A stretch of 64,000 nt of DNA from Amoebophrya sp. A120 (taxonomy: Eukaryota > Protista > Dinoflagellata), in contig CAJINV010000004.1 of assembly GCA_905178155.1 (NCBI GenBank), forward strand, positions 2,378,228 through 2,442,227, written 5' to 3'. The stretch's first letter is position 1; every line of letters starts with the position of its first letter. The notes beneath the pieces are model-generated. The model worked only from the letters and a program-made list of their open reading frames with translations, ran no database searches and was not told where the DNA came from. A program made the translations under genes and the position numbers. Shown in pieces: positions 10,040-63,900 of this stretch.

Positions 10040-13000
10040 ATGCGCCGGTCCGCATCGGCCGGGCGCGTGTCGCCTTTTTTGCGGCGGTCCGGATCCGTTA
10101 CCGGCGACACACAAAGCACAGCCACCACAGCCACAACGTTGGCAGGAAACAAAAGGCCACCGCCGCAGCAAGAGTCGCCCTCCAAAATTATTCGGAAAGG
10201 CGTTCTCTTGGAAGAGACCAAGGCCGACGGGAGTGTGCGTGTCCGATGGAAGCCCAGCACTAGCAGTTCCTCTACCCGAGCAGCAGGTGGCAGTGCTTCA
10301 ACGACTAGAAACAAAAGTTTCTCGTCCGGGGTCAATACGACGACCAACAGGCCCGGAACAACTTACAACAAACCCAGCCCAGTACAACTACTATCCTCCG
10401 CACCAGCCGCCTCGGCCAATGCCAACATGCGGGTGGACGAAATTCTGGCCGATTTATTTCCAACGCCGAGCGGCCAGCCGAGCCGCGCGTCCTCCAGTAC
10501 TAGCTCAGCAACATCTTCGAAGCCGGGCCCGGTACGGGGCACGGCTGGTGCAGCGGCAGTGGTCCTCGAACAGTTTTCTGCGGACCCGAACTCCTTGCTG
10601 AAAGAGGTGCTGGAGCAGGACCCGAGCACGCTGCGGCTCAGCCTCTTGCGGAACCGCCGACATGCTTCGGCCGATAAAAATCGGGGAACGACCCACCTAA
10701 ACGACAGGTCGGCAAGCCGACAGGAGCCGTCACCGATCGTGAACAAAGAACAAACCCCACCGTCCCCGGTCGCGTCGAGTGAAGGGTCGAAGGCAAGCAG
10801 CTCGACGTCGAAGAAGCTCCGGCTGTCGCTGAGTTTGGACCAGATGAAGACGAATTCGAAAGAAAGCATAAGTCTTGATGCTCGCAATCCACCGCCCATG
10901 GAAGCTGCGTCGAAAGAAGTTCATCTCAAGAACACAGCGACCGGCTCTACTAGTACTTTATTGCCCAAAAGCGCGGACACCACCATGGATACGATGACGC
11001 CGTTGACTTCGACCACGTCGCGGCGGTACTACGTGCAGGCCGACGGATTTTCGTCGCAGGCGAGCAGCCCGGGGACCGGGCGGATTCGCGCTGAATCTAC
11101 TTACGGGGGCGTGGGGGAGTTGCCTGCGCAGAAGTTCTTGTCAACTTCGTCTGGTAAAATAAATCAGACCGCTGTAACTTCGTCCTCGTCGCGCGCGAGC
11201 AGCCGTGGGAGGGGAAATCTTCAAAGCTCCTCTCCACTGGATACTAACACGAACAAGGTTGGTGCTGGCGCCGTGATCGCCGGGAATAATCCTTCGTCTT
11301 CCAGCACGGCAGGCGGTGGTCCTTTTTTTCAGCCACAATCCCGTGCTGGTCGGGGAGATTTTACGAGGACGAGCAGTAAAGAAAGTCAGAGTCAGCCCGA
11401 AATTGATGACAGTTCCGCCATGGAGCTCGGCTCCCTCGTGGAGCGTTCCGACCTGGCACGGAGCTTTTTCAACTGGCGGTTTCAGTTATGCAATGCAAAA
11501 GGAAAAGTATTGTTATTGTACTAGTAGTAATTGCAATACAAAATGGCTCAGCATTACAAATTTAAATTTGTAATGCGGGTTTCCCTAAGCACCTAGATTT
11601 GTAATGTATAACTGCAATTACTACGAGTGCGATACTTTTGCAGAGGATATCAGTTGTTGCAGAAGCGGTTTGACGACACCCACGTGGAGCAGCAGCACGG
11701 GCTGCTGGTCGCCGCGAAGTTTCTGAAGGACAGTCGGCGAAAAGAGCAAAGATTTCTCCTCGAGAAGGCCTTTTTGCAGTGGGCACGGACGGCGGCGACC
11801 AGTTTGGACCAGCGGGCTCTCGCCGCAGAAATCAAGGCGCAGTGCTTGGAAGACTTCACGATGCGAGAGGCTGGGCTGCGGGACGCGTTGCGGAACCACG
11901 TGCGGGAGAAGATGGAGATGTTGGTGGATAGTAGTTGCAACGGCGCTGCAGGAGGTAGGCCGGGCTCTTCATCTTTATCTTCGTCGGCGATGGTACTGAG
12001 AAAGATGGCGTTCTTCAGTTGGAAAATGACCGCGGCAGAGGGGATCGCGCTGCGGGCGAAGGCTGCTGCAGGTGAGCTAGTTTGATTTGGTTTCTCTTGT
12101 ACAACAATAGGAATAGGATCTGTTTCATAATCAACTGCAACTCCACGACCAGACTCTTCTTCACTTCTGCGTCCTTGTGGGTGTTGTCGTGGAGGATCTG
12201 CACGCAGTAGTTTGGAGGTTTTTCAAGATTTTTCGGTGAGTTCTTTGTCGTGCGCAGAATTCTTGATTTCGTTTTGGATTTCGACAAGTGCCCCAAGAAT
12301 TTGCGTTTGACATTGACCCCGATAGTACCAGGCATTTCACATGGATCGACATGTACTTACGCGCCAACTTTCTTCAGATGCCGCCAAGCAAGAGGAAGCT
12401 TTGACCGACGCTCCGGCGCTCGAAGCGCTCGCAACCCTGCAACGACAGGAGGAAGACCTCCACGGGCAAGAACAAACGCGCCGCACCCTTTTACACGACC
12501 GCAGGAAGGAGCGGAAACTTGCCGAGATCGTCAAGGCGGCGGACGAGGAAAATATTAAAACTGGAGAAGGCGGCTCGTCGTTTTCCAGATCTTTTAGTTC
12601 TTCGAAAGGCACGTCGAACAGTAGTAGAGCGGGCACTCCCACCGAGGACTACGGGAATGCATCAAATTCTGTTCCTACTTTGAAGCAGCAGATCAACGCG
12701 AAGCAGCTGCAACTGGAGCAGGAGGTGCTCCAGCACAAACTCGCGGACACAGGAGAGGAGAAGTTGAAGCTGGCGAAGCAAGATGTGCTGCAGAAGTCGG
12801 AAGAACAGGAGCTGCTGCTCTCCCAGAAAAACCAGGAGGTGGGCTCGCTGCTGCAGAAGGTCGGCGACCTGCAGCAGCAGATCGTCGACATGGGGAATTG
12901 GATAAACCACGGCAGTGGGATCATGATGAAAACAAATGAGGACGACACCGAGGAGACTGAAGAATCCAGGCAAGCGAGTTTGCAGCGACTGCAGCACGCG

Positions 13001-16000
13001 GAGGAAGATTTGGCGAGGTATCGGGAGCAGTGGGAAGAGAGTGTCTGTGCGAAGGAGATGCTGGAGCAGAGTTTGCATTCGAAGCAAGAGGAAATTTCTC
13101 TGCTTGAACAGAAAATCGAGGTGCTCACGGACGGCAGAAAAAACGACAAGGAGAAGCTCCGGAAAGCACAACTTTTGGATAACGATCGCAAAAGAACGAT
13201 TGAAAAGTTGAAGGAGGCGGCTCTGTCGGACAACCAGTTGAAGGAAGAAAAGGCGAAGCTGGCCGAGGAACGCGAGGCACTGGAGCGGAAAAAGTATTAA
13301 CTTTTGTGCCAGGGCGAATTGGTGACACTTAGTCCGTTTTCAGTCGCTTTACAAAAATTATGAGAAGAAATTTCTTGAAGAAAGATGCAGAAGCTCAGAT
13401 ACCGCAATAGATTACTTATGCAGTGTATTGGGTACTTTTTTCTTCGGGGTAGAAGAACACAATTTTCTCTACAACTTCAACAGGCAGCAACTGCTGAACC
13501 AGGGTAAGGCCCTGGAGCAGGTGCAGAAGCGGCTCGATGACTGCACAACAGACCTGGAGGAACAGAAGAAGGCCTTCGTCGAGAAGGAAAAGCTCCGGCT
13601 GTTCGAAGCTTTCGGTGACGCCAGAGCGAAGGCCGGGGATCTCGGCTGGCGATGGAAAAGCGTGCGATGTACTAAGTTGGGAATTCGAACATTGTTTTTT
13701 CTATTGTAGAACGAGTTTTTCAAATTACTTAGTTTTTCTTTTGCGTTTAAGTGCTTTGTCAAGTCCTGCAGGTGCAGCACTACTAACCTCACTGTCGAAA
13801 TAAGTAATTTACAAAAATCTCGCTCAGTGCGTCTCCAGTGCCTGCATGCGTGGCACCACTTGACCAAACAACTACGGCATGAGAAGCACCAGCGCGAACT
13901 CCAGGACGAATTCGATGCCTGCACCAAGGAATGGGATGACCAGGTGGCCGAGAAGCTGCGGGAGCAGAAGGCCGCGTTTGAGAAGCAACGGGAGCAGGAC
14001 CGAGCCAGAACGCAGGGCAGGATCGACGAACTGCACAAGGAAGTGGCGGAGAGTATATTACTACAACCGTTTTAGTTTTTTGCTACTATTAAGAATCTCA
14101 CACAAACACAATGTGCTGTTGTGCTCGCGGCTCTAGCACTTGCAGCACCAGGAGCATGATGCTACTTACTAGATGGCAGGAAGGACTACGATTTCGATTT
14201 GTGAAGTGAATCTTCTATGCATTGAAACTGTACATGTACAACAGGTCGCCGCGTGTTTTCGGAGAACACCGAACTGCGGGGCTCCACCGTGGCTGCCCGG
14301 ACGTCGCTTTCCATTTTCAAGGACCTGATGAAGCAGCAAATCGGGAATTTCGAGGAGAAAACGGGGGAAAAAATCAGAACCATAGACCAGAAAACAAAAA
14401 ACCTCTTTGCCGTAGTCCAGACGTTACTGATTAAGCAGAAGGAGCTGCAGGTCCAGAAATTCTCCAATCCATCCGAAATCGAGCTGGGCGACTTGTACCG
14501 CGAATTGAAAATGACGTACGGGAGATTACTGTCCGCCCACGCGGCAAAAAAAAGGGAACTGAATCTGTGCAAACAGGAGCTGAAACGGCAGACGAAGAGG
14601 AAGGAGCAAAACAAGTCTGGTGCTGGTACTAGAATTCTGTCGCGGAGCGCTTCCACCTCCGGCTTGGGGTTGGGCGGCTCGTCGTGTTCGGGGCACGAAT
14701 ATCAAAGTGAAAAATCCCCCCTCCCCATATCGGAAACGGAAGATGCGCGAATTTGTGATGCTGTATTTGAGTACACAAATCGTAATCGACTTGTATTGCT
14801 AGAAGGCCAAGAGACGAAGCTGCGGCCTAAATTGCAGGCAATCTGTCATGCTGTTTCCCACTTCCAGTTGCCTCCTGTCATCCTGGAGCTGCAGGGCTTT
14901 CCCAGGCTAGACAGCGCTACAGTCTGCATCTTTTGCCTTCTAGCATCACAAAGCTGATTTGTTGCCACAAATCTGCATCACAGATTTCCGTTTTGATATG
15001 GGGAGGGGGCATTTTTCATGGTAATAACGAAAAGAGCGGAATGGACACACCGATGAACCTGTCCTGCAGTATATGCAGGAAAAAAACTGTGTAAGTGTAA
15101 CTCTGCAATGCAGAACATGCAACAGAGTTACGCCTGTCATGCCAGAGAGCCACGAAGTTCTCTTTTCATGTGTGTGTTCCCTTACGAGCCACGCATGACA
15201 GGTTTTCTCTGACATGTAGACCAAACTTGTGATGCTGTCGGCCAAGGAAAGTTACACTAACACAGTTTTTTTCTTGGATACAGTAGCAGCGCGAGTTTTG
15301 CGCAGTACGGAACCAGCGGCGCAAGGATCCAAAGCTTGGAGCAACAGGTATATACATATAGCTTGCTGTGGTTGTTAGTTTTTGTAATACAGCATCTCTG
15401 ATTTTGCTACGTCTTGTCTATGTTTTTTCTGAGCGCCTATGCAGCCGAATCTTATGAAACCGACACTGATCATATAAACGATGCTAACATTACATTTATC
15501 ACCTACTCCACCAGGTCGCCACTCTGCAGCTCGAGCGCGGGAAATCGGTTCGCGAGTCGACGGAATTGGAATCGAAACTTACTACTTTGACCTCTGAAAT
15601 CGAGGAGCAAAAGCGGATTTTGAGGAAGCAAAACCGGGTGGTGTGGAAGGTGCGCGAGAATGCGTGGAAGCTGGATACCTTCACGAAGTGGCGAAGGTTG
15701 TGCTGCAGCAGTAGGGACGTGCAGGTGAAGAGCTCTCCCCTGCTGGGGAAAAATACAAGACAAGGCAATCCTCCACTCCCCGATGACGAAAACGAGGAGG
15801 ATGCAGTGCTGCTAGAAGAAGATCCTGACAACGGAACAATCGCGGTCCATCAGCAGCATCAAGAAGACCCGGGGACTGTGTCTACTAAAGACACGGCGGC
15901 AACGTCTACCTCTAAGGAAATAATGAATTCGTACAACAATCCGACAGCCAGCAGTGCCGGAGTGAGCAGCTGCGAAGAAACAACTTCGATGGCATCAGAA

Positions 16001-18118: not shown

Positions 18119-21100
18119 ATGAAGGCACTAGAACATCAGTCAGTCCATTCGTATTCCATTTGGGCTGCACTAGGTGCCTATTTGTTTCTTTTCCCCCGCC
18201 ACTTTATCGCCCCCGTGGTTCTTGCGAAGGGCAGTAGTGACAACATTTCTTCTACTGACCGAAGTCCGTCCCCGACATCTAGGCAATTACAAGACAACAT
18301 ACGACCACCGACACCACCCTTGTTATCTCTAGAAAGTTTGAAAATCTTGACGGATTTCGTAAAAAGACAGGATGAGCAGCAAAAACTGCTGCGGGAGCAA
18401 AGGAGAGAGGAGATAAAGGGGAAAAGAACCCTACTGGGGCCGCAGTTGTTGTCCAAAACGGCAGTACTATCTACAGCACCACAACCACACAAAGCGCGTC
18501 GTCCTGTCAGTGCAATAAATTCATCTTCCCCGCCCCCGTCCCGTCGCCTCACAGCAAGTTCTTCCACCACGGCACCAGAAACGGAGGTTTGCTTTACCTA
18601 TTTCAAAGCCAACCATTTGGATTGCACGCGAAACAAGGATTACAGTGTGAACTTTCAAGTTGCGTCAGCGAGTTGTGTAGCCAGTCCAGCCAGTTGCGCG
18701 GAGTGCGGGCAAACGGACCAGGGCTACAGTACCATCGCGGTTTGCGACCAAGACTATTCGACGCTGACAACGGGCGCGCAATGCGCTTACTCCGTGATGA
18801 ATACCTGTTCCGAAGCGGTAGTGGACGGGACGGGGAAGTTAAATCTGCTGAAGCTGAACAAAAAGTACAACTACAACCCACCTCTGCAGCTCCCACCGGC
18901 AGACCACCCAAATTTGCCGTTTCACCTCTCCGGGGTGACCAGGAGGCTGCAGAGCCCGTTTTTCCACTCCGTTGGGTTCTGCTCGGAAGCAACAACCAGC
19001 GAAGTTTGGGTGGACACGGGCGTCTTCACGAAGTGCTCGATCCCCTACGCGATCGATTTGGGACTTGGCGCGAAGAAATTAAACGAGATCAAGAAAATCT
19101 GCTCGGTCGATACCCCGTACGCCGGTTACAACCTGGTCTGTGACACGTTCGTGCTGACCGATACAAACCAGCCGTTGGATGGGAATCTGAATTTCAAAAT
19201 CCTCACCAAATTTCTGCCGGGAAGCTTCACGAACAATGTATTGAAAAAGCCGATTGATTTCACAAAGGGAACCGACACCGCCGAAGCGTGCGGCACAGGG
19301 ATAGGCACCGTACAATCGGTCCGGTTGTACGCGCGCCACAGCGCCGCCTGTCCAAGGGTTTCTATTCGTGTTGGTCAGCGGTACGTTTTGGCGTCGAACG
19401 AGCAAATCTGGTGGGTGGCGTCGGTGCATGGGACCGCCGTCGCGAAAAAGCTGATCGACGTGCACATGTGCGGGCCGCAGAGGCAAGACCGGGTGTGCGA
19501 CGGCGGGCACAGTTCGCGGACGAAATGCGATCAGGAGCGCGGGGTGTGCGTTGGGGTGGATACGGTTTTGAGTCCGCCGATGTCGGAAAAATCGAAGCAA
19601 GAGACGAAGTTTGATTTCTCTTCTATCCCAACATACTGCCTCGACAGCGCAACAAGTAATGCTGTCATTCCCGGAGACACAATCACTATCAAATGCAAAT
19701 ATGTCTGGGTCTGGAAGAGTGCAAGTTTGTCATGCTTGTCTGGCATGACTCGAGAATCTGTGTTGCATAGGCACGAAAAGGCCCTCTTACCCGTCATGCA
19801 AAAACGCAGCTTTCCATGCGGAATACGTAAGACATAGGAGCCAAAAAATTTGTCATGCGTAGCTGCGTATTGCAGTGCTTCTACCATTCACTTTTAGCAT
19901 TACAAGTTCCCAGGCCCAGACATATTTGCAATGCATAATCACCACCGGGTTGCAAATTCGGTTCGGGAGCTGCGAGGACCGGCTGACGCGGGATATCACT
20001 TGTAAAAATGTCTGGGTCTGGAAACTTGTGATGCTGGGTGGCGTCTCATGATGAGGCCACAAGTGCTGGCTCAGCATGACAAGTTTCTGAGCTTCTAGGT
20101 GTTGCCTATTCTGCATGACAAACTGCGTTTCTGCATCAAAAAAAAATGGAGCTCTTGGGTAACGTGCATGACAGGTTTAAGAGTCATGCCAGACAAGCAT
20201 GACAAACTTGCACTCTTCCAGACCCAGACATTTTTGCATTTGATACGGGACACCGGCGCCGCACTCTTCGAGAAACCGCAGGCGAAGTGCTTTGCGGATC
20301 TGCCCGGGTGTTCCGACAGCTGTCCAACGGCGAAAAACGGCGTGTGCGAGGACGGCGGTGTGAACCAAAATCCCTTACCGGAGAGCAAAGGTGGATACAG
20401 TTACTACAAATGCCCTCTAGGCACCGACTGCACCGACTGCGGACCCACCGCGAACTTGTGGCGCCGGGTTTTGAAGACGGATTTTGCGGAACAGCCGTTT
20501 TACTCCAGCTCGGAATTCAAGGATTTTCTGCAGAGAGAAGTCTTCCGCAAGACAATCGGCTCGGGCGACGGGTGGGGCGCGCGCGTCCGGTTTTGCCCCG
20601 TTTTTTACAACGGGCTGACCGGGAAATACGAGGATCCGGCGGACCAAGCAGGTTTGACCTCCCCGTGTTTCGAATCCCTTGCTACGCTTCAATCAGACGC
20701 GCTGTGGGGGCAGGAACACAGTTGGAACTGGTTTTCGCAACTAGAACAAATTGGGTACAACACGCCTGTGGAGTGCGGGGACTATTGCCTTGCGGAGCAT
20801 TTGGATTTTGAAACTAATCTGTACCAAAGTCTTCCCCGGAGGCACCAGTTCAGAAGGAACAAAAACGCGGCAAAAGTTGTACAACTAGGGAACAGTGAAG
20901 TAATAAATCTCGAACAAGATCTGTCCCTCGAGTTCGCCAGTCCTGAATTTGAGCTCACGTCCCTCATCTCGGACAACCAAGCAAAGCTGCTTCACGGAAA
21001 GCAGACACAGGGCGTCTATTTGTCCGGGAAGGTGTCCGACTACGGTGCTACTTTCGCGGCAGGGTCCAAGTATGGGGTTGACTACAAACAGCAAACTCGG

Positions 21101-24100
21101 TTTCTGAACTGTCCTTTCAAAGCCTCTTATCCTCCGAACGGGTTTATTCAAGCAGACGGGAGTTTGAGCAAGGACCGCTTTCCCGTGCTGTCGCAGGGGA
21201 TGAGCTACTGCGCGTTTGACAAAATTTCCACCACTGGCATCCCGGAGTCGGCGACGACGGATGTAATCCCGCTCGTCGGTGTCGCGGTGGACGTCTCGTG
21301 TGCGCACGATGCCAGTGATTTGACGTTCACGACGACCACCACGCCTTCCCCACTCGTGGACCATGGTCGGGACTTCGTGTGTGTCACGAAGTTCGCGAAA
21401 ATCCCCGGGGACGCAAAATCGGCGGAAGATTTTGTGGAGCCGTGCTCGAGCAACCAAAAGTTCGCAACCTCGTATCCGGTCCTGTCTGGACTCGACGCGG
21501 CGACCATATCAAATGTAAAAATGTCTGGGTCTGGAAGCTTGTGATGCTGGGTGGCGTCCCATGATGAGGCCGCAAGTGCTGGCTCAGCATGACAAGTTTC
21601 TAAGCTTCTAGGTGTTGCCTATTCTGCATGACAAACTGCGTTTCTGCATCACAGAAAAATGGAGCTCTTGGGTAACGTGCATGACAGATTTAAGAGTCAT
21701 ACCAGACAAGCATGACAAACATGCATTTTTCCAGACCCAGACATTTTTGCACTTGATAGACCAATGTTCCGAAATGCGATTTGACCGCCACCGGGAGTGA
21801 CATCCCGGTGAAGTGTCCGAATTCGAGGTGTAACTACGAATTCCTGTTCGGGATCAACCAGATGGGGTACAGTGCGGCCTGGTGCGAGGAACCGAACTTC
21901 TCCCGGTGCACCATCGGCGAGGCGGCCGCGGACTGCTTCACCGCGGCGAAGGCGGCGAAGCAGTATCTCGACCAGTACGCAGACACAGAGAGTGCGACCC
22001 TCGCGAGCGGCGCGGACCTGGACTACACCATGGAGCTTGGCCGCATCGGGGTGTGTATTCACCAAAGTGCCACCCAGTACAGCATGCGCATCTTCGGCCA
22101 CTGCGAGGCGAACCGGAACCAGCGGGTCGCGAGTCCGCCCTTCCACATTGGGGGGTTAAAGCCGCAGGAATTCACCGTCGGAGCGTTAACATCAAACCGC
22201 CTGGAGACCTGCCTCCCGGCCTGCAGCGACAGCTGTCCCTCCGCTTTGAACGGCATTTGCGAGGATGGGGGGGAGAATAGCGTCGCTGGTGTCGGCGTGG
22301 GGGGGATAAAGATCGGAAAGTACAGTGGGGTTTCCGGGGGGTACCGCTGTCCTCTAGGGACGGACTGCAGCGATTGTGGGGTGCGGGAACGAGTCTGGCA
22401 CCGGGTGTATGATCACAAAACTGATAGTACTACGCAGAACCGGATGTCCACTTGGGAGGAAGTGATAGAGGGGTCTTCCCTGAAAGAAGACCACGGTTCT
22501 TTGACGCAAACCAGGTTCCGGTTGTGCCGCACGACGGGCGGATTAGTCGGCGGGGGAACAGGGTCTTCATCTTCATCAGCTTCTAGTACAGCGACCACTA
22601 CAGACGCGCTCGACTGCGTGGAGTCGTTCGCGACCGTGAACTTACGGGAAACGATTGTGGAGAAGAAATCGCTAAACACGGTGAAGAGTAAATCCGGGTT
22701 CTGCGACGCCAACTGTCTGCGCGCGCACCCTGGGTGGACATCGAGCACTCTACAGGCGGATTTTGTCGACGCGGCCATGCTCGCGGATCGCGGCCCGGGG
22801 TTTCAGCTGCGACACAATATAGGTCGGGGGAAGGTCGCGCCTTCGGTGGATGCGGCTTATCCGGATCGGGTCTTCGAACCGTGGATAAATCGCTTGAGTT
22901 ACGCCGGGGTACTTGGGCAAGAGCCGGTGACGAACGGTATCTGGCAGACGTCGGGCAATATTCTCGGGGTAAATTGCACAGACGCGACGTCGTCGTCGTC
23001 CACTGTGGGCGGTGGTGGTGGTCAAGACGGGAGTTCCGAACGAGTCGGGGAATGTCACTTCGTAGACAATTACGACGTGAGTGGTCTTCAACAAAGCGCC
23101 GCTTCCTATGTCGAGCGAAGATCCTATTTGGTTCTGGACGTGAGCTGCGATATAGCGACAACAACGACCACGACAACAACGATACTAGGCGCTGTTGCGG
23201 ATACGACGTCGACAACTGAGGAAGCTGGTGATGGAGTTGGAGAGCCTACAACGACTAAACCCACGACGACATCAACAACAGCTGTGGAGCAAGAAACGAC
23301 CCAGACACCGACTACAACGGAGCCACCAGCGACCGAGAACGTCGCGATCGATGTATCAAAAAGAAAAATCCCCCCTCCCCATATCAAAACGGAAATCAGT
23401 GATGCATATTTGTGATCACAAATCAGCTTTGTCATGCTAGAAGGTAAAAGGTGCGGACTTTAGTACAGGGTGGTGTGGGAATTCCTCGCACTTTCAGCAT
23501 GACAGGAGGCAGCCGGAAGTATGGAACAGCATGACAAATTGCCTGCAAACCAGGCCACAGCTGCGACTCTTGGCCTTCTAGCAATACGAATCGATTTGTG
23601 TACTCAAATACAGCATCACAAATTTCGTTTTCGATATGGGGAGGGGAGATTTTTCCTTTTGATACGATGTGGCCATGTCGCTGGACCTCGCCGTGATCCC
23701 GGTTTCGGCCGAAGGGCAGGCCAAGGTGAAGGCCGCCGTAGGCACCGCCACCGGCTCGGTGTTTTGCCGCACCTTCCAGGCCATGTGGCTGCCGGAGGGC
23801 GTCCAGACCAGCACTCAGGCAGAGAAAGCGGCGGCAGCAAAGCTCTGCCAGCAGGCCCAGAACGGGGGTTCGAACCCGGAGTATACGGGCCCAAGCGTGT
23901 TCTGGTCGGCCGAAATGAGCAGCACCGGGGGACCGCCCGGGTTTGCGGAAGCGGCAAAACCCGTGCAGATCTCGTTTACTAGCGACGAGGACGAGGTGGC
24001 TGCGAGAGTGGTTGTGCCTTCTACTCCTGTAGGAGACGGTGCTGCCACGAACACTTTCGCGGGGAGACGAGAGAGGAGACTAGTGGAAGATGTCGTCGCG

Positions 24101-44524: not shown

Positions 44525-47500
44525 ATGCCTCGGAATTCTACTGCCTCCAGGGCTGCTCCAACAAATGCAAACATAACTCCTACCACCAGTACCACAAATA
44601 ATTCTTCGCGAAGTAGGCCGGCACGTGAGGACCAAGAACTACATGATCCGCAAAGCGCGACGAAAATTCTGCGCCTGCTCGAGGAGGATCATGACCCCAC
44701 GGCAGATGCGATTCCCACCTTATCCCACGAAAAAAGTGTTTCACTGTAAGGATTTTGCAAGTTTTGCATCACAAGTTTGCTCTGCATGACAGCGAAAATT
44801 TGCAATGCGCGACTTCCAAGGGAAAACACCGCTAAAAAGCCACTGTCTTGCATGTCTAGCAAAACAAACAGAAACACTTCTGAGATACATTTTCTGCATT
44901 ACAAGCTTACAGTGAAACAGGTTTTTCTTGCGATACGCCTACCACGACCAGAACGGCCTACTGTCGCCGACCAGCGGCGGGGTAGTAGTTTCATCGCTGC
45001 ACAGAACAAATTTGGATTTTCTAGAGGAGGAGGAGGAAGATGAAGCAGAACAACACCTACAACACCTACACCTACTTCCAAGGAGCAGCAATAAAGCCAC
45101 GACAACTCGACATCTTCGGGGTGGAGTAGATGGCGTGCAAAATGGTCAAATGGGACGCGGGCGAGGAGATACAGGCTGTAGTACTGAGACGGGCGGGACG
45201 AGTTTTTATCAAGTGGACGCTACTACAACGCCGACGAGGGTCCAGTGGACGCAGGTGGATGTTGAGGTCATCGCAAGACACCACTACAACTACCACTGTC
45301 AGTTGCAAGATACAACCACGGGCGCAGCTGGCTGTATTCAAGAAAATAACGGTTATTTTGATACTTCCACTTCATCGACGCGGTTCTACTCACAGTCTGC
45401 GTATACTACCGATCGCGACAGCAGTTCTTGTACCTTTTCATCTGCGGCCACTCCTGCCGTGGGGCGCGGTTGTATTCAAAATGTTTCGCTTTCGCTTTCA
45501 TCATATTCGCGTGAAAGTCTATTGATCTTTAGCAGGTAGATTGCGGTGTACTACTGACTGGCTCCACCCAGGATATAAGAGTAGAAGTCATGGACGCTTA
45601 TGAGCACCTCCGCGTGTTTCTTCTACGTACTCATTTTGTTCTTCCTGCTGGTGCTTCATGATGCATTTCTCAAATGACCGCCTGGATGAAAGTACACCTA
45701 CTACAAACAGCGTCATCTGTCGCAAGCACGAGCAGCACCCCTGGAGGCGGTCTAGGGGTGAGGAACGTCCTCACCGGTGGCGCGACGACCGTGCATGGTC
45801 CTTCCAGATTCCTGCCGTCGTCGACCTCCGCTTTCGATTTTGCCGCCGAGGACCGGCCGTTGGACTGTTTGCCCCTTTGTCAGCTGGAAAGTGCGCTTCT
45901 CACCACCACGAGAAAGCTGTTTCCCAAATTGCCCCATTTTGTCATTACTGGCGTAGCGGGGGCCGGAAAGCGGTTCGTGCTGCATGAACAAGAGGGGCTT
46001 GTTATCCTATTTAAAAACGTCCCCACCCCATAGTTGTAATGCAAATCTGCATGCTGAAAATGTTTCTCATGCGGAGCCCCATGAGAAGCATTTTCTAATC
46101 GTGTTTTGAAATTTGTCATGCTCCAATCAGCATGGTATGCTAGATCTGTGATGCTGCTGAGCAAGCTCAAACAGCACTACACTACGAATCCAAATTTGTC
46201 ATGCAAAACAGCCAAAACTTGTGGATTTGTCTAACCGATTCCCCAACTTGACTATGGTGTGGGGACGTTTTTACTCAGGATACTTGTTCCGTCAACAAAC
46301 AACAACAATAATAATAAAACTGCTGCGTCCTCTACTACTTCTCACTGTTATTTCCCCTCGTCGGCTACGGCTAGTAGTAGTTCTACCACTGCTAGTGCTC
46401 AACAAACGACCCAAACAAGTGGGCCGCGGACGACGGCGCACAGGATGAATAACAAGAAGACTACTCTAGCATCAGCCGCGCAAAGCAACAACTGTAGTAC
46501 CAAGAACATCCACGTGCCCTTCTCCGTTTTCCTGTCTCTCGTGAAGGAGGCGGAGGCGCTGTGCTTTGCCTTTGTTGACAACTCTGAGGTGGACGATGAT
46601 TATCGAAGCGGTTGTTCGGCACAAGGGCGAGAGGAGGAGGACAGAGCAACTCCTGTGAAGATGAAGATGAAAGTGCAGCTTCCGAGTATCAATCAAGCGG
46701 TGATGCAAACGAAGATGTTGCACGGCGGTGGTACAACTTTTGGTCTCCAGGAGGAGCAGCTGGAGGTGCAGCACCAATCTAATACCTTTGTCTCCCCGGA
46801 CCGAAATTATAAACAACTTCAACAATCTATGGATGTGTCAGGATTGAAATCGACAAAATCGAAAAATTTGTGATGCATAAAATGCAGGGCACTGAAGGCC
46901 TGTATTGGGGAGTAGGCAAATGAGGCCGATTGTAAGCCTGTTTAGGGGTATACAATGTGCTGCCAGAGTAGCATTACAGACGGAGTCTTCTTTGCCCAAA
47001 CAGCATGACAGACTGGATTTGGGTACTCCCGAAATTTGTCATGCGCCACTTGGAAACTGAGGCTCCAACTGACATCGATTTGGTGCATCATCGATTTTGT
47101 CAATTTCGATTCTGACACGTCCATACAATCAAGTGGTCGGCACAGACTTGCACGAGGAGATAGTCTCCAACACAGCGGGAAAACGACACCCAATTTGTTG
47201 TCATCTTCATCCTCGTGTGCAGTGTAAAAGTGTAGAGTATAATCCGACAGCACTAGGAGTGATTGCATTTGCATCACAAATGTGCTCTTCAGCATGACAA
47301 AGGGAGCACTTTGTCAATATGGTGCATTGCCTAAGAAACCAGCTTCGTCACATGCCGGATTCTTGCAAGTTACTACAACTGCTGCGATTTGTCTTGCTTT
47401 GCACAGGATACGCTGAAGAAGCATCTAATCTCCAGCACGAGCAGTACGCCGGGGCGTCGGCGCGGGCTCACGAGTGGGCCGCAGCCCAGATCCTGGATGT

Positions 47501-49971: not shown

Positions 49972-50826
49972 AAGGCTTCATGCCACCCATCGGTCGGAAG
50001 AAAACTAAACAGAGATGAATACAGTCTCGGCTGTGGGGATGAACGATCCACCGGACGAGTTGTTTCTGTTTATTTTCCATCGGTTTTACTGTTTGTAATT
50101 GTATTTACCCCGGGCTCGGTCTCCCTCTGTGCAGTTGGGAAGAATGGAATCGAAGGACAATTGAAGTATGACTTCGGTCCTTGCTTGTCCAGCAGAAGTA
50201 GATCGGAAGTCTCTGTAGAACAAGCTGCTTCGGAAAGAGAAGATTTTGTGCATCGGTGCGGCCACGACACGCTTGACAATACATAGAACTACCTACAGCT
50301 GGTCGGAAGCTCCCAACAAGTGTGGACAAGTAAATAATAGAATCACCTTGATGAATTATTTATTTTAAAGTTTTTCTATTACTATTACACAGGATCAGGA
50401 GCCCTTTCTATTCGAGTCTTTACTTCTTACGATAGCCGTAACTAGTAGCCGAATCGCAAGTCAAAAGAAGCGAAAAATAAGTTTTACCAACCCCAGAAGC
50501 GGAACACGAACAAGTAAAAAGAAATTATTTTTTGCATCATTCGGAATCTCCATCTCGTCGTACTACTTTCATCAAGACCTTCTTGCTCTAAGTGTAACAA
50601 GGAGAACCAACGGAGAACCTACACAGTTCTCGTCCTGACAACGGAGAACCAACAACTTAAGTAAATCTGAAGTATAAATCAACGAGTTTGAAATTGATAC
50701 GTTTCCAGAACATCAACACTCTCGACACACAGGTGAAGAAATTGAAGTTCAAATTTCACATCGCAGGGCTTGCCGGGTCTCCTAGCTTCGGACACCCAGC
50801 ATCGGGGGTTCTGCTAGACCGCGAAA

Positions 50827-53800
50827 ATGGGAGGTAATAAATTATGGATTGCAAAAGTGTCTGGGTCTGGAAAGTTGGAACTTGTAATGCTGGTCTTGCA
50901 TTTCTGTGAAATCTGTATTGCATGACCAACAAAAGTGGTAGCCTCCCATGTCATACAAAAACGCAGCTTGTCATGCGGAGTTCGTATGAGAAAGCGTACT
51001 GCAAACTTGTCATGCTTTCCTGCATAAGGTAGTGACTTCCTCTTGCACACGACCCAGACATTTTTGCAGTTGATATAAATCCTCGCAGAACAATAACAAT
51101 TTGCCTTCCGGGCGGAACAAGATATCCTCCGTGAAAAACGCCCCAACCTCCCCAATAAAGTTGTCGTGAAAAAAATCTGTAAATCTTCAGGGTAAGCTGA
51201 TCGATTTCTCATCATGTGGCTGCACTAGTGAATCATCAGATTACAATCCTAGTACAACAGGCCCACAGCACGACTTGTCATGCGCAACAGCTAGAGCTTG
51301 TTGCTTTGTGGCGCCCATCTTGACACTGGGATGCTGGGGAGGTTTTCACACAGGATAGAAGATGGCACCAGGCGGGCTTAAGACGATGCTGTGTTTCAGC
51401 TATCAAACAAAAAAAGTTCGTCACGATCTCACTCATGCGCATTTTTGCAATACAAAACTGTCTCCTGTCATGCGTATTAGAAATGCATCACAGTCGAGCT
51501 TATTTCTGCTCGAAGACTCGGATTTCTCTTGTGTGTGTGCCTACAGAACAAGAAGAAGGGAACCTGCAAAGATGCAGGAAAAATTTGTCACGCACCGAAA
51601 CCTGCAAGTTAGTGATAGTGACTACGAACTCCAACTCTTGTCTTTCTATATCAGCGCCGCCACGACTTTTAATGTTATGCCCGGCGCGCACGGGCTTCTG
51701 CGGGTGATGATGGAAACAAAGAAAAAGAAGAGTGCAAGTAGCAACAAATTCGCGGCGGCGCGGGAGAACCAGTATCTGAAAATGCTGGGCGACGTTTCGA
51801 CTTCTGTCCAAGACCTTCGCACGCAACTTTCCCAGCATGCCACGGCTATCGGCAGCATGCAGACGATATGCAACACAAAAACTGTGTGAGTGTAAGTCTG
51901 TGATGCAGAGAATGCAAAACAGTAATATGCTTGTCATTCTGGATGTGCGTCATAGAAGACTACTAACTTTCATACGTGTTTTCACGTACGAGCTGCGCAT
52001 CGCAGGTTTTTTCTGTAATGCACAAGGAATTTGTGATGCTGTTGCTGTTCTTCCTACAAAATTACACTTACACAGTTTTTTTCTTGGATAGTCTAAAGAA
52101 GTGCATCAGCAGAAGCAAATCGACTACTTGACGGGGCTATGCATTGCAAATGTGTCTGGGTCTGGAAGGTTGCAAATTTGTGATGCTGTCTTTGGATTCT
52201 TAGAAAATTTGTGATGCTATTGCTAGGTCATCGATTGCAGGCATCCAGGGTCAAGATTCAAAATATGCATGACAAACCTGGCAATATTCCAGACCCAGAC
52301 ATATTTGCATTTGATACGGGCATTTGAATCAATTGAAGCGCAGCATTGACATATCGCAAGAAAAAACTGTTTCACTGTGAACTTGTGACGCAGGAAATGG
52401 AACACGACACTCTTTGTCTTGCTACACATGCAAGACATAGGATAATTTTCAAGCATATGTTTTCACTTGGAAAGCGCGCATGGCAAAGTTTCGGTGTCAT
52501 GTGTACACAAACTTGCGACGAAGATCTTGTAAAAGAATCACAGTGAAACACGATTTCCCGACGATATTAAGGCCTCGCGTTTGGCGACGCCGAGAAATGC
52601 GCGGCGGAGATCATGAACCCGACGAGCGGAAGCCACTTTGCGGTGTACACCTGGAATCGTGCCCCGCACACCTCTATGGATTGCAAATATGTCTTCTGCG
52701 TCTGGAAGAGTATCAAGTTTGCCTTGCGGTGCAGCTTGTTTTGCATGACCCGGAAGGAGCAAGTCTGGAATGCGAGCCGTAGCGTCTTCACAAGTTTTTG
52801 GAAGGCTCCTCGATGTTGCCTATCCTGTGCATGAGAAATGTCGCCTCGTCCAGGTGACCAAAATTGGGTGGCTTTTGCTACACATGCCATACACATATTT
52901 TTGTTTCCACCTCAAGTAGATGTTGTAACAACATCTAGCGTCAATTTTCACAAACTCAGACTGTTCCAGATTCAGGCACTTTTGCAGTTAATAACGTCCA
53001 GTCCGGAGCCCCTGGAGCCCGGGCTGCCCCTGGAGAAGCGACTGAAAGCAGAGGAGACCAATCTTTGGCACGAGAGATACGACCTTTACCCCGGGGACAC
53101 GAAAACCGTTCGCGCCTTTGACGGGCAGAGTAAACAGTGTGACACGTTTCGGATATTCGTCGTTCGCCAGAACAGCTATCATTTGTAAAAACGTCCCCAC
53201 CCCATAGTCAAGTTGGTAAATCTGCAACACAAATCTCCAAGTTATGGGAGTTTTGCATGACAAGTTTCTATCTGTAGTGTCGTGCTGTTTGGCAAGGGCA
53301 GACGCATGAGAAGGCCAGCTTCTCATCCCGTTTACAGCATTTTTACAAGGTCCAAAACAGGATTGGAAATGCCTCTCATGCAGATCCTCATTACAAAAAC
53401 TAATGTTGCTCTCATTGCGCATTTGCATGACAACTCTGGGGGAGGCAAACGCAAAGGGTGTCGCACTTCTGTTTAGCATGACAACTCTGGGGTGGATACG
53501 TTTTTTCATAGGATAACAGCCGCAACATATTCACGCGCAAGTACAGCGACAAAATGATGCAGCTGGAAAACGGCAAATCCTACGTGATTATGGCGCCCAA
53601 TGAAGTCATGCTCCAGGGTATGGAAGCGTCAGGATGGAAATCGACAAAGTATGGATGAAATAATTTCTCATGCACAAAATCGATAACAGTTTTTAGAGCC
53701 AAACTGTATAGTCGGCACATGACAAATTTTCCCTCCGCCGGAAGCGAATCTGTCACGCTGTTTAGGGCAAGGAGCTCCCCTCTGTCATGCTAGTCAGCAT

Positions 53801-54516
53801 GCAGGCGCAGCCCAATTTTTGACCCTTAGCAGGGCTATGATCTGCCTCCTTTGCATTTTCTGCAATAGAGGCACCCTCTGCGTCGCATTTTATGCATTGC
53901 AAATCATTTTAACTATGGCGATTTCGATTCTGACACGACTCCCATAACGGGCGAAATGGCCCTGCGGCAGCAAACATCGGGAGGAGCCATCACTCCCTCG
54001 ACCGCTGTCCCGTCTACTGTGAGGAAAAATCCCCCCTCCCTATACTGAAAAGGTATATTTCTGAAAATTTGCGATGCTGATTTGTGGCCGCAAATCCTGC
54101 GTCTGCCTCTCTTGCAAGAGGGCAAACTCAGAAACTCTGCCACGATATGCAGGCGATTTGTAATGCTGAAAGGCCTACAGGGCAGACGTCTGCCATGCTA
54201 GGCCCCTACACCAAAGGGCCCCCCCTTAGGCTTACGATCTGCCTGCAGTGCCTTACTGCAACACAAATGTGATTTGTGTACTCAAATACAGCAACACAAA
54301 TTTCGTTTTCGATATGGGGAAGGGGGATTTTTCCTTTTGATACCGTCTGGGAGCGCTTCAGTTGCGTCCGACACGGAAGATGATGCTGCTGCGCCTGATG
54401 CATATCAAGCTCTGCGTGGTGCTACGACTCCATTTGACGATGATCAAATGCCGATGCCGTCTGCTCCGCCGGGTGCTCCAACTCCAATTCCGTCTGGCCC
54501 TCCGGAAAACCGTTAG
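50827..54516 (+). CDS. Hypothetical 329-aa protein split into 11 exons by 10 TIR introns
   Basis: Removing 10 elements plus one 5-mer each (2,700 of 3,690 nt) leaves 990 nt, open from ATG to TAG: MGGNK|SSQNNNNLPSGRNK|MAPGGLKTMLCFS|AATTF...MQT|KEVHQQKQIDYLTG|HLNQLKRSID|SLAFGD...PHTS|SPEPLE...RQNS|RNIF...MLQG|EMALRQ...VPS|GSASV...PPENR. Central coiled-coil-like segment, Pro-rich tail. Confidence 0.82.
50843..51075. mobile_element. TIR intron, family A, 233 bp
   Basis: TATGGATTGCAAAAGTGTCTGGGTC...GACCCAGACATTTTTGCAGTTGATA; direct repeat TAAAT. Confidence 0.9.
51123..51357. mobile_element. TIR intron, family D-like (diverged), 235 bp
   Basis: TATCCTCCGTGAAAAACGCCCCA...TGGGGAGGTTTTCACACAGGATA; direct repeat CAAGA/GAAGA. 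Confidence 0.85.
51401..51650. mobile_element. TIR intron, singleton family, 250 bp; in frame and stop-free
   Basis: TATCAAACAAAAAAAGTTCGTCACGATCTCACT...AGTGATAGTGACTACGAACT..TCTTTCTATA; direct repeat TCAGC; internal TGTCATGC and GCATCACA motifs. Confidence 0.8.
51867..52090. mobile_element. TIR intron, family C, 224 bp
   Basis: TATGCAACACAAAAACTGTGTGAGTGTAA...TTACACTTACACAGTTTTTTTCTTGGATA; flanks GACGA/GTCTA (3/5). Confidence 0.87.
52138..52316. mobile_element. TIR intron, family A, internally deleted, 179 bp
   Basis: TATGCATTGCAAATGTGTCTGGGTCTGGAA...TTCCAGACCCAGACATATTTGCATTTGATA; flanks GGGGC/CGGGC; both ends align to 31801-32062. Confidence 0.9.
52352..52566. mobile_element. TIR intron, family F, 215 bp
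   Basis: TATCGCAAGAAAAAACTGTTTCACTGTG...CACAGTGAAACACGATTTCCCGACGATA; flanks TGACA/TTAAG (2/5), frame still restored. Confidence 0.85.
52675..52993. mobile_element. TIR intron, family A (diverged), 319 bp
   Basis: TATGGATTGCAAATATGTCTTCTGCGTCTGGAA...TTCCAGATTCAGGCACTTTTGCAGTTAATA; flanks ACCTC/ACGTC. Confidence 0.85.
53177..53515. mobile_element. TIR intron, family D, 339 bp (internal 51-bp gain)
   Basis: TATCATTTGTAAAAACGTCCCCACCCC...GGGGTGGATACGTTTTTTCATAGGATA; direct repeat ACAGC; close to 42207-42495. Confidence 0.93.
53619..53946. mobile_element. TIR intron, family G, 328 bp
   Basis: TATGGAAGCGTCAGGATGGAAATCG...CGATTTCGATTCTGACACGACTCCCATA; flanks CAGGG/ACGGG (3/5). Confidence 0.85.
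54015..54342. mobile_element. TIR intron, family B, 328 bp; left terminus diverged (TACTGTG)
   Basis: TACTGTGAGGAAAAATCCCCCCTCCC...GGGGAAGGGGGATTTTTCCTTTTGATA; direct repeat CCGTC. Confidence 0.9.
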
Positions 54517-57677: not shown

Positions 57678-57715
57678 GCTGGATTGATACCAGAGCGAGC
57701 AGCTCCTGGTCCAAG

Positions 57716-60948: not shown

Positions 60949-63900
60949 ATGAACGAGGAGGAGGCTGAGGCCGTGCACGACGATGACACCACGTTTTACG
61001 TCCTCTACGTGGAGACTATTCGCCTCGCCCACCCCGACCCACAGCCACTGAACGCCTGCATCCACTGGTACATCGGGGACGCGTATCAAATGTAAAAGTG
61101 TCTGGGTCTGGAAGAATGCATGTTTGTCATGCTTGTCTGGCATGACTCTTAAATATGTCATGCACGTTACCCAGGAGCTCTGTTTTTCTGTGATGCAGAA
61201 ACGCAGTTTGTCATGCAGAATAGGCAACACCTAGAAGCTCAGAAACTTGTCATGCTGAGCCAGCACTTGTGGCCTCATCATGAGACGCCACCCAGCATCA
61301 CAAGTTTCCAGACCCAGACATATTTGCAGTCCATAACGCGGACTACAGTTCAGTGCCCTTCACCATCCCGGCGAATGCGCAGTGGTACGATCTGAAAAAC
61401 TGCGGTTTTGTTCTGGTGCCCGACGCCGCACTGAAAGAGGACAGCGAAAAGAACAGCCTGACCCTGTCGATCACCAGCTGGGAAGGAGAACACCTGGGCG
61501 TCTTCTTTGGACACTGCGGAGACATCGCCACAAGTATTAAATTATATCACGATCATGTTTACATTTATTCTTTTGCTTCGATAGTTGTAGTTCTAGCTAC
61601 CGTCAAAGCAGTTGTTGGGTTACAAAACGTTCATAGAAGTTACGTCCCGCTGAATAAAAAAATCTTCTCTGCCCATTTTTTATCAGGCGAAACGTTCGAC
61701 AAGCATGACGTCGAGCTTTTGCACGAAGACGGCTCCTTCGCGACCGCCGAACTTCACGCGGCACGCCAGGGCCGTTGGACGCTGAGTGGCGCGAAGCAAA
61801 AGGAATGCGTGTTTGTCGATCCGAGCAACGATGCCCAGGCCAAGCACATCTGGGAGTTCATCGCGCCGGAGCCTACCGCGTCGTGGAAAGGCACAGCCAA
61901 GGCGAAGGGGACGGCTCCACCTGCGGCGGCCGGTGGGGTTGATGCGGGGGAAACTACATCTGCTTCAAAGGCGGACACAAGCAAGATGGTAGAGGAAGGC
62001 CAGAATGCTGGAGCAAGTGGTAGTACCGACGAGAAGAATAAAGCTGAGGCAGGTGGGGCCGCGTCGAGTAGCCGTGGTCCGAGGGTATAATTCAGTCTAT
62101 ATCATCTTGCTTTGTGTTGTGAATGAAGATGAACGCGGTGCAGCAGCTGCAACCTACGGCACACCTTCGAATATTAGAATTAGAAAGAGGAATGATATAA
62201 GTATCGATAACAGGTGCCATCATTCTTGGACGCAGAACGCATATGCAACGCGTGATGATTATCGCAGGCTCAGCACAAATGAATATTTATGAATGCTGAA
62301 AGCTGCAACAAGTTAGTGCTTTGAATAAAATACAAATATACGGAAATCATCATGTGCACGAAAATCAAAATCAAATTCCGTTCGTAAAATAAAACACAGG
62401 ACGCCGATCCGAGCCCGGAAATAAAAGCCAGTAAGGAAAGCGAACAAAAAGGCGCCCCAGGAGACGACACTGCAGCAGCAGAAGATGGAGCTGGTACTCA
62501 CTCGTCTTTGCATACAGTTTTTCCACATGCCGAATCTATTGCAGTGCCGAAGGAGCTTGCGCTAAATCGTTTTTTACGTGCTACGAGTGCAGAAGACGAA
62601 GAGCGTCTTTCACTTTCTATATCTATTTGCTTTTGTGCTCCTTCGATGACATAAATGATTATGAAAAAACCGTAATCACAGACGACCCCGGGAATGCCGA
62701 CCCGAAGGGCGCCTCCACCGCGAAACGCAAAAGCGCCCGCAAAAGGACGTCCGCGAAGGCCGACGCGAGCGACGAGCCTTCGGTACCAGGTAAAGAGGTT
62801 GTAGTAGTTGCCAGCGCAAGCAAAGAAGGAACATCAAGTGCAACTACGTCGCCAGGCAAAAAAACCAAACTCAACGTCGGGAGCAGCAATAAGCAGGCGG
62901 AGCTCACTTCCCTTCCCCCCGGGGAGCAGAGAAACTCTTCGGCAAGTAGTCCGGAGCGGAAAATGAAGACCAACGTGTTCAAACGAGCTGCGCAAAGCGT
63001 GATCGACGCGAACATAGCGACCAGCAGTTCAACGTCTCGGAAAAGTACGAACAAATCGCCCAGAAAATCGAAAAGCAACCGAGACAGCAACACCACTGGA
63101 GGTGAAAACAAGGGAAATAAAGTAGGCGAGTTCCTTCTGGACAAAGGCGTGGAGCAGTTAAATGAGTTCACCAACAAGGTCTACGCGTCCGAAGGCTGCC
63201 GCGCCACGCTGATGCATCCGAGTAATGGGCAGAAGATGCCGGTCAGAATGCGAATTCTTATGAAGAAAACAGGCTTACCCGTCCCCGGGAGTGAGGTCAG
63301 CAACATCGCGGAGGATGCGTATTTGGAGATCGCGAAAGACAGTGTGGACAACAGTAGCAACCCGTTTCTCCAGCCCGCCTTACCCTCTACTGGTGTAGTC
63401 TCCAGCACCGCTGCGAGCGCAGCCCTTCCCTCCGGCCGGTCTCTGAACAAAAACATCCTCCGTTCCGTGAAGCTGTCCGGCATCAAGAACCTGTTTCTCG
63501 GCGCGAATTTATCGCCGTTGACGAAACGGGCCTTGAAACTGACCGAGGAGAAACAGTTGCAGTACCTGCACCCGCTGTGCGTGACCATGCAAATCTCCGA
63601 GGAGTTGGAGTTTCTGACCCTGGAGTTTCTGTACCCGGACCAAGTGCAAGACGTGACCGAGGACGGGTTGAACCTACACACGGAGGAGCTACTCGGGAAC
63701 AAATCCGAGTACCTTCCGCAGTTCATCGAATTGTGTCGCAGCTACTACGCGCCGCCGAGGTACCCCGACGAGCCGCAGACGTATAATTTGCTTTCCAAAC
63801 AGCAGTTTCCCGACGTGAAGAAAGTGTGTGAGGAGGCGGTGGTAAAAGTGGCGCAGAAAAAGGTGAACGACCTGCAGACGCTCCGGAACTCGGTAAACTT

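What the first reader, a model, noticed from the sequence alone, without database searches (positions are those of the whole stretch)
11487..61335. The same elements interrupt genes in both orientations, implying strand-symmetric removal signals
Seen: all host genes are on +, yet relatives occur reverse-complemented: 19994/21507 vs 61084 (A), 38003 vs 40403 (A), 14700 vs 23354/54015 (B), 11487 vs 36442 (E), 44721/48687 vs 48168/52352 (F). Known: spliceosomal introns are polar (5' site, branch point, 3' site). Inference: recognition depends on the TIR stem and symmetric motifs, not polar U1/U2 signals.
Basis: partly seen in the sequence, partly recalled or inferred. Interest (0 to 1): 0.75.

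Follow-up and report, generated by a model that had tools for sequence, protein, structure and literature searches.

The report
Either-way transposon introns in Amoebophrya
Genes of what is likely the marine parasite Amoebophrya are interrupted by a known class of small jumping elements that sit in either direction and are likely cut out of the RNA exactly in both, by a still unknown machinery that likely reads the hairpin ends, and reads the start differently from the end.

Summary
The window has 35 elements (TAT…ATA, about 30-nt terminal inverted repeats, 5-bp target duplication) inside + strand genes, and relatives occur in both orientations; only the 54015 pairing is unresolved. They match the published Amoebophrya A120 introner elements (Farhat 2021). 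In 402 more copies from a related assembly, all 16 subfamilies occur both ways. Removing element + 5 nt restores frames and aligns without gaps to homologues in both orientations. No GT/AG enrichment or canonical branch point is seen in either orientation.

The inference is only partly supported. Inverted repeats give identical ends either way, and two-orientation introners with polar splice sites are published. Post hoc, the first T never varies (0) while the last A does (8), which hints at polar reading. The internal motif GCATBACAA is strand-neutral and helically phased, so it is likely a DNA-level transposase site rather than a splice signal. No RNA reads were obtained. This scan noted similar introns in other genomes, none on orientation in the four notes shown.

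The parts
11487..11649 (.). Family E element, 163 nt, TSD TCAGT; opposite to 36442
14700..15026 (.). Family B element, 327 nt; opposite to 23354
15072..15280 (.). Family F element, 209 nt; same way as 48168/51867/52352
19687..19937 (.). Family A element, orientation 2
19994..20245 (.). Family A element, orientation 1, TSD CGGGA
21507..21758 (.). Family A element, orientation 1, TSD GACCA
23354..23664 (.). Family B element, 311 nt; opposite to 14700
25441..25702 (.). Family A element, orientation 2
30745..31027 (.). Family C element, orientation 1
31121..31415 (.). Family C element, orientation 2; carries the internal motif only in antisense
31801..32062 (.). Family A element, orientation 2
36442..36591 (.). 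Family E element, 150 nt; opposite to 11487; junction gap-free against the A25 orthologue
37625..37876. Family A element, orientation 1 by pairwise scores (the family tree labels it the other way); perfect 30/30 TIR
38003..38271 (.). Family A element, orientation 2; junction gap-free against the A25 orthologue
39782..40033 (.). Family A element, orientation 1, inside an RCC1 repeat (WGW|GEFGQLG); junction gap-free
40403..40670 (.). Family A element, orientation 1; opposite to 38003
42207..42495 (.). Family C element, orientation 1, in an ArfGAP domain
44721..44935 (.). Family F element; same way as 48687
46003..46282 (.). Family C element, orientation 2; motif only in antisense
46828..47125 (.). 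Family D element; opposite to 53619
48168..48379 (.). Family F element; opposite to 44721/48687
48687..48896 (.). Family F element; same way as 44721
48953..49289 (.). Element without a relative in the window (family of 8 with the loci)
50843..51075 (.). Family A element, orientation 2; first of ten elements in a 332-codon frame
51123..51357 (.). C-like element, unassigned orientation
51401..51650 (.). Diverged element with perfect TSD TCAGC
51867..52090 (.). Family F element; same way as 48168
52138..52316 (.). Short family A element, orientation 2
52352..52566 (.). Family F element; opposite to 44721/48687; TSD 2 of 5
52675..52993 (.). Diverged family A element, orientation 1
53177..53515 (.). 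Family C element, orientation 1
53619..53946 (.). Family D element; opposite to 46828
54015..54342 (.). B-like element starting TAC; orientation against 14700/23354 unresolved
61084..61335 (.). Family A element, orientation 2; interior 96% identical to 19994/21507 reversed
413..629 (.).
18119..27757 (+). Host frame of 2762 codons after removal of five elements (both A orientations)
34945..41095 (+). Host frame of 1645 codons, RCC1-repeat protein, five elements; orthologue of A25 protein P0008
42083..42772 (+). ArfGAP-domain host frame
50818..54513 (+). Host frame of 332 codons holding ten elements
25750..25814 (+). Two empty target sites: locus L090 has the same exon with an element at each end

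Best explanation
These are inverted-repeat elements with 5-bp target duplications, of the published Amoebophrya A120 introner type, that lie in either orientation inside genes and are likely removed from the pre-mRNA together with exactly one copy of the duplication by a machinery that likely recognises the closed terminal stem and reads its two ends unequally. Shown: anatomy, both orientations, frame restoration by element + 5 nt, gap-free homology, absence of GT/AG enrichment and of canonical branch points. Inferred, step by step: (1) a transposase acting in trans binds the TIRs and the helically phased GCATBACAA sites in double-stranded DNA and inserts the element with a 5-bp stagger and no sequence preference; (2) either orientation gives a transcript that starts UAU, ends AUA and can close a stem of about 30 bp; (3) the 5' cut needs the U(+1) and probably A(+2) at the stem base, while the 3' cut falls a fixed few bases past the stem without a sequence of its own; (4) the catalyst is more likely a modified spliceosome lacking a recognisable U1 (about 55%) than a separate nuclease-ligase route (about 35%). 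Identity with the A120 class: about 0.93. Steps 1-3 together: about 0.55.
For: Anatomy equals Farhat 2021 (TAT, seven looser bases, three or more A; 5-bp direct repeats; U1 not detected); family lengths agree with rows of Gozashti 2025 supplement file 8. Element + 5 nt opens frames at 317 of 492 junctions vs 40-62 for +3, +4, +6, +7. Nramp locus L073: 7 of 7 junctions gap-free, family A in both orientations (4 and 2), 302 bits vs 275 (+2) and 268 (+8). RCC1: 36442, 38003, 39782 gap-free vs A25. 343 of 368 retained elements carry an in-frame stop; 8 would read through. All 16 subfamilies (220 elements) occur both ways. Empty sites vs L090 show insertion with a 5-bp duplication. Terminal variants in sense: outermost base 0 at 5' vs 8 at 3'; third base 11 vs 3; Fisher p 0.001; interior mutation spectrum is not strand-biased in that direction (A>G 157, T>C 178). 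Motif: 836 sense vs 845 antisense; private-mutation rate 2.17% vs 2.30%; middle base A in 9 of 1110; spacings phased at 10.5 bp.
Against: No RNA reads, lariats or junction reads were seen here. The polarity rests on 26 hand-curated variants, was found post hoc, and some TAC variants may be inherited from one master copy. TIR positions 4-30 show no 5'/3' difference and no G-U excess (312 vs 303; private 58 vs 69), so nothing shows that the RNA stem is selected. The cut position within the duplication is unresolved: only the register with the whole upstream copy removed is disfavoured, largely by stop codons. RCC1 junctions 37625 and 40403 lie in gapped regions and do not test exactness. Helical phasing p-values ignore shared ancestry, and 10.5 was not the best period in 3 of 6 tests. 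No transposase was found in 564 kb. No evidence here distinguishes spliceosome from other catalysts.
Confidence: 0.58

Rival explanations
1. Fully symmetric, spliceosome-independent excision: a nuclease-ligase pair cuts at the base of the TIR stem whatever the strand, releasing circles or linear hairpins, as proposed for euglenid nonconventional introns.
For: 5' and 3' logos mirror each other; no base preference in the duplication or flanks after codon control; YTRAY depleted; stem predicted both ways. A 972-nt family A element with a 700-nt insert sits in the RPB1 gene, so the interior is flexible. Euglenid introns leave as circles (review section).
Against: Terminal variants are polar; mild orientation bias (147 of 220 in the majority orientation, p 0.017) and slightly lower sense folding energy (201 vs 166, p 0.028). 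Even the Euglena code is polar around a symmetric pair (N3 CDG … CHG N5-6 | R, abstract). A120 keeps U2, U4, U5, U6 and 83 of 89 spliceosomal proteins.
Confidence: 0.22
2. Ordinary polar splicing with signals duplicated by the element: each orientation carries its own branch point (GCATBACAA) and recruits GT/GC and AG from the duplication, as in Polarella and Aureococcus.
For: The motif contains TNAC and often lies 33-50 nt from each end, pointing inward. 247 of 368 have some in-frame GY-AG option near the ends and 66 an exact-length one.
Against: At any one exact register GY..AG holds in at most 11 of 368; 55 of 368 have no option at all; homology requires exact removal. The supposed branch A is not protected (16 of 563 private changes vs 12 of 550 antisense), 30 of 368 lack the motif in sense altogether, and the middle base is almost never A.
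Confidence: 0.07
3. The elements are marked at DNA level: a protein bound to the TIRs and phased motifs in double-stranded DNA hands the ends to the RNA-processing machinery during transcription, so the RNA stem is secondary.
For: No G-U signature in the stem; all 368 elements hold at least one motif within one mismatch on either strand; motif and TIR mutate about a third less than the interior on both strands.
Against: The same pattern follows from selection for transposition alone; TIR and motif rates (2.2-2.5%) are not clearly below the post-insertion clock from duplications (3.1%).
Confidence: 0.08
4. No splicing: the elements are skipped by ribosome hopping between the direct repeats, or excised from DNA, and RNA-seq junctions are reverse-transcriptase jumps.
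For: A 5-nt repeat always holds one full in-frame codon; strong hairpin plus direct repeat favours template switching (established knowledge); RNA was not examined here.
Against: Mismatches between the two copies are not depleted in the in-frame codon (24 of 736 at codon positions 1-2 vs 13 of 471 outside); non-synonymous mismatches accumulate near the neutral rate (3.1% vs 3.6%), so repeat identity is not needed; the elements stand in two assemblies.
Confidence: 0.04

Closest known systems
Introner elements (IEs) among non-canonical introns of Amoebophrya sp. A120 (Farhat et al. 2021, PMC7789003; abstract, sections 10-12 and 16, supplement legends seen; figures not seen). Also Gozashti et al. 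2025, PMC12130899 (passages; 22 of 58 A120 rows of supplement file 8).
   Same: TAT start, A-tract at about +11, inverted repeats, 5-bp direct repeats, about 240-nt length, co-oriented genes, no fixed splice dinucleotides; annotated GT share 27-28% in large families (92/331, 147/547) matches the 30% background found here.
   Different: No difference in kind. The passages seen do not report element orientation, the internal phased motif or unequal 5'/3' terminal conservation. They give inverted repeats of 8-20 nt; here about 30 nt.
Two-orientation introner-like elements of Polarella glacialis and Aureococcus anophagefferens (Roy et al. 2020 preprint 10.1101/2020.10.14.339549, passages; Huff 2016 not held, known only through that text)
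   Same: TIR elements with target duplications that create introns in either orientation, with a bias to one orientation.
   Different: Those use GT/GC/GA and AG from the element end or the duplication; here neither is enriched and the target has no sequence preference.
Nonconventional introns of euglenids (Nomura et al. 2025, PMC12501133, abstract and passages; review PMC11282704, section 6)
   Same: Paired ends, direct repeats, no GT-AG, MITE-like origin, symmetric paired motif read with unequal spacers.
   Different: Different end motif (CAG/CTG), purine preference at exon start (no such bias seen here), circular products shown there and untested here; unrelated lineage.
MITE-derived non-canonical introns of Fritillaria borealis (seen only through review PMC11282704, section 6)
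   Same: TIR and TSD introns removed without GT-AG.
   Different: They keep preferred AG-AC/AG-AT ends and a fixed target; attributed to an adapted U2 spliceosome.

Membership tests
Amoebophrya A120 introner elements | Inverted repeat starting TAT, seven less conserved bases, then at least three A | tested here: met
   Logos of 368 elements: A at 85-94% in positions 11-13 on both ends; 34 of 35 window elements start TAT
Amoebophrya A120 introner elements | 3-5 nt direct repeats at the borders | tested here: met
   26 of 35 perfect 5-nt repeats in the window; 354 of 457 raw detections in the loci, where detection favoured them
Amoebophrya A120 introner elements | Repeated families without canonical splice sites | tested here: met
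Amoebophrya A120 introner elements | Removal shown by RNA-seq junction reads | not testable with these tools
   No reads obtained; inferred from frames and homology; published for A120 in general
Amoebophrya A120 introner elements | Host is Amoebophrya | tested here: inconclusive
   An A25 protein gives the broadest match to the RCC1 gene (38-42% identity in two of its three main segments); no direct match of the window to a named genome was available
MITE / non-autonomous TIR DNA transposon | Short, TIRs, constant-length TSD, no coding capacity | tested here: met
   median 262 nt
MITE / non-autonomous TIR DNA transposon | Presence/absence polymorphism with a single target copy at the empty site | tested here: met
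   L090 vs window 25750-25814, 60 nt identical, two sites; only one side of each L090 element is held
MITE / non-autonomous TIR DNA transposon | Cognate autonomous element with transposase | tested here: inconclusive
   None among long TIR pairs in 564 kb; Gozashti 2025 reports Copia/Gypsy-like ORFs in TIR elements of A120
U2 spliceosomal intron / Polarella-type introner | GT/GC/GA donor and AG acceptor at the cut sites | tested here: not met
   At most 11 of 368 per exact register
U2 spliceosomal intron / Polarella-type introner | YTRAY branch point near the 3' end | tested here: not met
   60 sense, 75 antisense, 176 shuffled of 368; the control on canonical introns of the window was uninformative
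U2 spliceosomal intron / Polarella-type introner | Lariat intermediate | not testable with these tools
   needs lariat sequencing
Euglenid nonconventional intron | N3-CDG … CHG-N5-6 | purine signature | tested here: not met
   Ends are TAT/ATA; no purine bias at any duplication position
Euglenid nonconventional intron | Base-paired ends | tested here: met
   Predicted only: z -7.2 and -6.8 for 19994 and 61084; 365 of 368
Euglenid nonconventional intron | Excised as full-length circles | not testable with these tools
   needs circular RNA sequencing

The most novel reading that the evidence does not exclude
Amoebophrya has evolved a second, lariat-free intron removal pathway dedicated to its own transposons. 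It needs only a closed terminal stem that starts with UA, measures the 3' cut from the stem, ignores strand, target sequence and interior, and so makes any insertion of these elements into any codon harmless; the transposase-binding code (phased GCATBACAA sites) and the removal code (terminal UA plus stem) are separable in one element.
Probability: 0.25. Interest if true: 0.82.

Novelty: already known. Interest (0 to 1): 0.42.

Why it matters
The elements are published, but how tens of thousands of them are removed without GT-AG and without a detectable U1 is open. Near-identical copies in opposite orientations (96% alike here) are a natural experiment that existing RNA-seq and genomes can exploit. 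This work narrows the candidates: target sequence, repeat identity, canonical branch points and the internal motif look dispensable, while the outermost 5' bases look required. If the polarity holds genome-wide it locates the donor-side signal and favours an RNA machinery with direction.

Tried and rejected
No RNA runs were obtained. TIR patterns found nothing in viral contigs and one isolated 20-mer in a bacterial genome (not examined, taken as chance). Rfam: 0 matches. Homologue search for the 2762-codon protein: none. RPB1 junction test failed: no PDB hit at 1e-60 and the representative search queue was full five times. Pfam test of L026/L028 junctions gave nothing useful (frames not verified). 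Canonical introns of the window could not be delimited well enough to serve as a branch-point control. Removal of element + 2 nt, which would give GTAT…ATAG, was rejected: it adds a residue against homologues and GT/AG are at background. GCATBACAA as branch point: rejected. Ribosome hopping: rejected. Variable junction within the duplication: synonymous share 42 of 84 vs 35-41% expected, p 0.003-0.06 depending on assumptions, not accepted. k-mer polarity scan: best p 5e-4 among 1152 6-mer pairs, not significant after correction. L077:2745-3119 first looked like a 5' CAT variant but is a false pairing of two inner palindromes. The per-position A-C column printed double-counts; only its corrected range totals are used.


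Full report
Scope. The finding claims that related elements interrupt + strand genes in both orientations and infers strand-symmetric removal signals. No RNA reads and no whole genome were available.

Anatomy. The window holds 35 elements of 150-339 nt, 9,018 bases or 14%; 31 came from the detector and 4 diverged ones were located by eye. They start TAT (34 of 35) and end ATA, with TIRs of about 30 nt and a 5-bp direct repeat (perfect in 26 of 35). Shuffled sequence gives 0-1 hits. Locus L090 shares 60 identical bases with window 25755-25814 but carries an element at each end, where the window has single target copies. This shows insertion with a 5-bp duplication and differences between close genomes.

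Orientation. On TIR-free interiors all claimed pairs are confirmed except those with 54015. Families C and D add further cases. With the loci, 437 unique elements were found and 368 could be given a host strand. All 13 families of three or more members hold both orientations (71 of 5,116 edges inconsistent), as do all 16 tighter subfamilies (220 elements, no inconsistent edge). There is a mild bias, for example 18:34 and 21:7 (p 0.017).

Removal. Deleting element plus 5 nt opens frames of 2762, 1645 and 332 codons in the window and passes a two-sided coding test at 317 of 492 junctions (duplicates included), against 45, 57, 40 and 62 for +3, +4, +6 and +7. If retained, 343 of 368 elements stop translation. 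Homology fixes the length in both orientations: three of five RCC1 junctions are gap-free against the A25 orthologue and two lie in gapped regions; all seven junctions of the Nramp gene in L073 are gap-free, with family A four times one way and twice the other, and +2 or +8 score lower. A Pfam scan of 143 of 147 locus exons plus 7 window exons was used to pick conserved genes.

Polar signals. The duplication and flanks have background composition after codon control. GT at last-duplication-base plus T occurs in 109 of 368 and AG at ATA plus first base in 113 of 368, both equal to G frequency; no exact register has GY..AG in more than 11. YTRAY is depleted in both orientations. Published annotation gives the same GT share.

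The stem. The terminal stem is predicted for 365 sense and 364 antisense strands of 368; 19994 and 61084 fold with z -7.2 and -6.8. If the sense RNA stem were tuned by selection, G-U should exceed A-C mismatches. It does not: 312 vs 303 in 318 elements, 58 vs 69 among private changes. Whole-element energy is slightly lower in sense (201 vs 166, p 0.028). A 30-bp stem tolerates single mismatches, so this does not refute stem use, but it gives it no support.

The internal motif. GCATBACAA occurs 36 times in sense and 36 in antisense inside window elements, and 3 times outside. In 368 elements: 836 vs 845 with one mismatch; all hold at least one copy on either strand, but 30 have none in sense and 128 none in sense within the last 70 nt. 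Private mutation rates are equal on both strands and the would-be branch A is not protected. Counted per cluster, same-orientation spacings sit at whole multiples of 10.5 bp and opposite ones at half turns (Rayleigh Z 6.5-14), and distance from the end has its best period at 10.3-10.4 bp (Z 9 and 25); 10.5 was not the top period in three of six tests and clusters share ancestry. I read it as a binding site on double-stranded DNA, like subterminal transposase sites of TIR elements (the comparison is recalled).

Unequal ends. Three searches that did not require TAT/ATA (312, 265 and 18 coding elements) gave terminal variants. I dropped seven rows shifted by three bases, one false pairing (L077) and two doubtful rows (L051:2324, L076:1531). 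Remaining, in sense: outermost base 0 at 5' vs 8 at 3' (p 0.008), second base 1 vs 3, third base 11 vs 3 (p 0.06); Fisher p 0.001, and 0.0006 with the doubtful rows. A transposase treats both ends alike relative to transcription, so the asymmetry points to RNA processing with direction. It is post hoc, small and needs genome-wide replication. The two duplication copies diverge at non-synonymous sites at 3.1%, near the interior rate of 3.6%, so one copy is free and repeat identity is not required. The exact cut is unresolved; at 38003 the upstream copy of base 1 gives Leu against Ile/Val in homologues, the downstream copy Pro.

What is known. Farhat 2021 describes these elements in A120, with RNA-seq support, hairpins, a MITE comparison, U1 not detected and the mechanism open. 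Roy 2020 describes two-orientation introners with polar sites, so orientation alone does not imply non-polar recognition. Euglena offers the functional analogue, a paired motif read with unequal spacers. I found no statement on orientation of the Amoebophrya elements in searches, in the 'orientation' passages shown for Farhat's main text (gene orientation) or in 2 of 3 supplement hits; Gozashti 2025 required same-orientation similarity for its families, while Gozashti 2022 allowed both. Figures, the Current Biology versions, Huff 2016, Henriet 2019, the preprint supplements and two supplement files of Gozashti 2025 were not seen and may cover it.

Verdict. Observation confirmed; class already known; interpretation partly supported. 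Both orientations are likely removed exactly, by end-based recognition without canonical signals, but probably not symmetrically and not through the internal motif. Interest 0.42.

Noticed in passing
all coding elements (368): Insertion phase is uneven: 109, 156, 103 for 0, 1, 2 codon bases before the element (p 0.001). In the favoured phase the first duplication base is a third codon position. The window alone does not show it (9, 12, 13). Unexplained.
   Followed up: partly
L053:4001-4972: 972-nt family A element in the RPB1 gene, with about 700 nt of unrelated sequence between intact TIRs and a perfect duplication.
   Followed up: partly
L090; window 25750-25814: Two insertions 60 nt apart in the related assembly are absent from the window although the exon is identical.
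   Followed up: yes
window 31801, 38003, 52138 and loci: Single duplication mismatches often put C next to the final ATA or G before the first TAT (G>C 5 at base 1, 6 at base 5), extending the TIR by one base; possibly a remnant of end processing.
   Followed up: no
window 28584-41095: The A25 protein P0008 matches both the 28.6-32.9 kb frames and the RCC1 frame at 34.9-41.1 kb: one long gene with a 2-kb intron, or a fused A25 model.
   Followed up: no
window 33740-34371: Dense array of short GTGACACGCA-type repeats in both orientations with nested palindromes, in a non-coding stretch.
   Followed up: no
window 57156-57392, 57542-57680, 57712-57898: Tandem repeats of about 40 and 21 nt and a repeated GGAGAAAAGTC motif also seen near 55060-55120.
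   Followed up: no
window 47224-47408 and 47835-48020: Intron-like stretches that hold the internal motif (47271, 47292, 47882) but no detected TIR or duplication; possibly old elements.
   Followed up: no
window 5765-7705: Uninterrupted 647-codon frame with an EAP30/Vps36 domain.
   Followed up: no
window 3700-5400, 7800-9300, 55200-56700: GC-rich intergenic blocks rich in GCGCGC runs, without elements.
   Followed up: no
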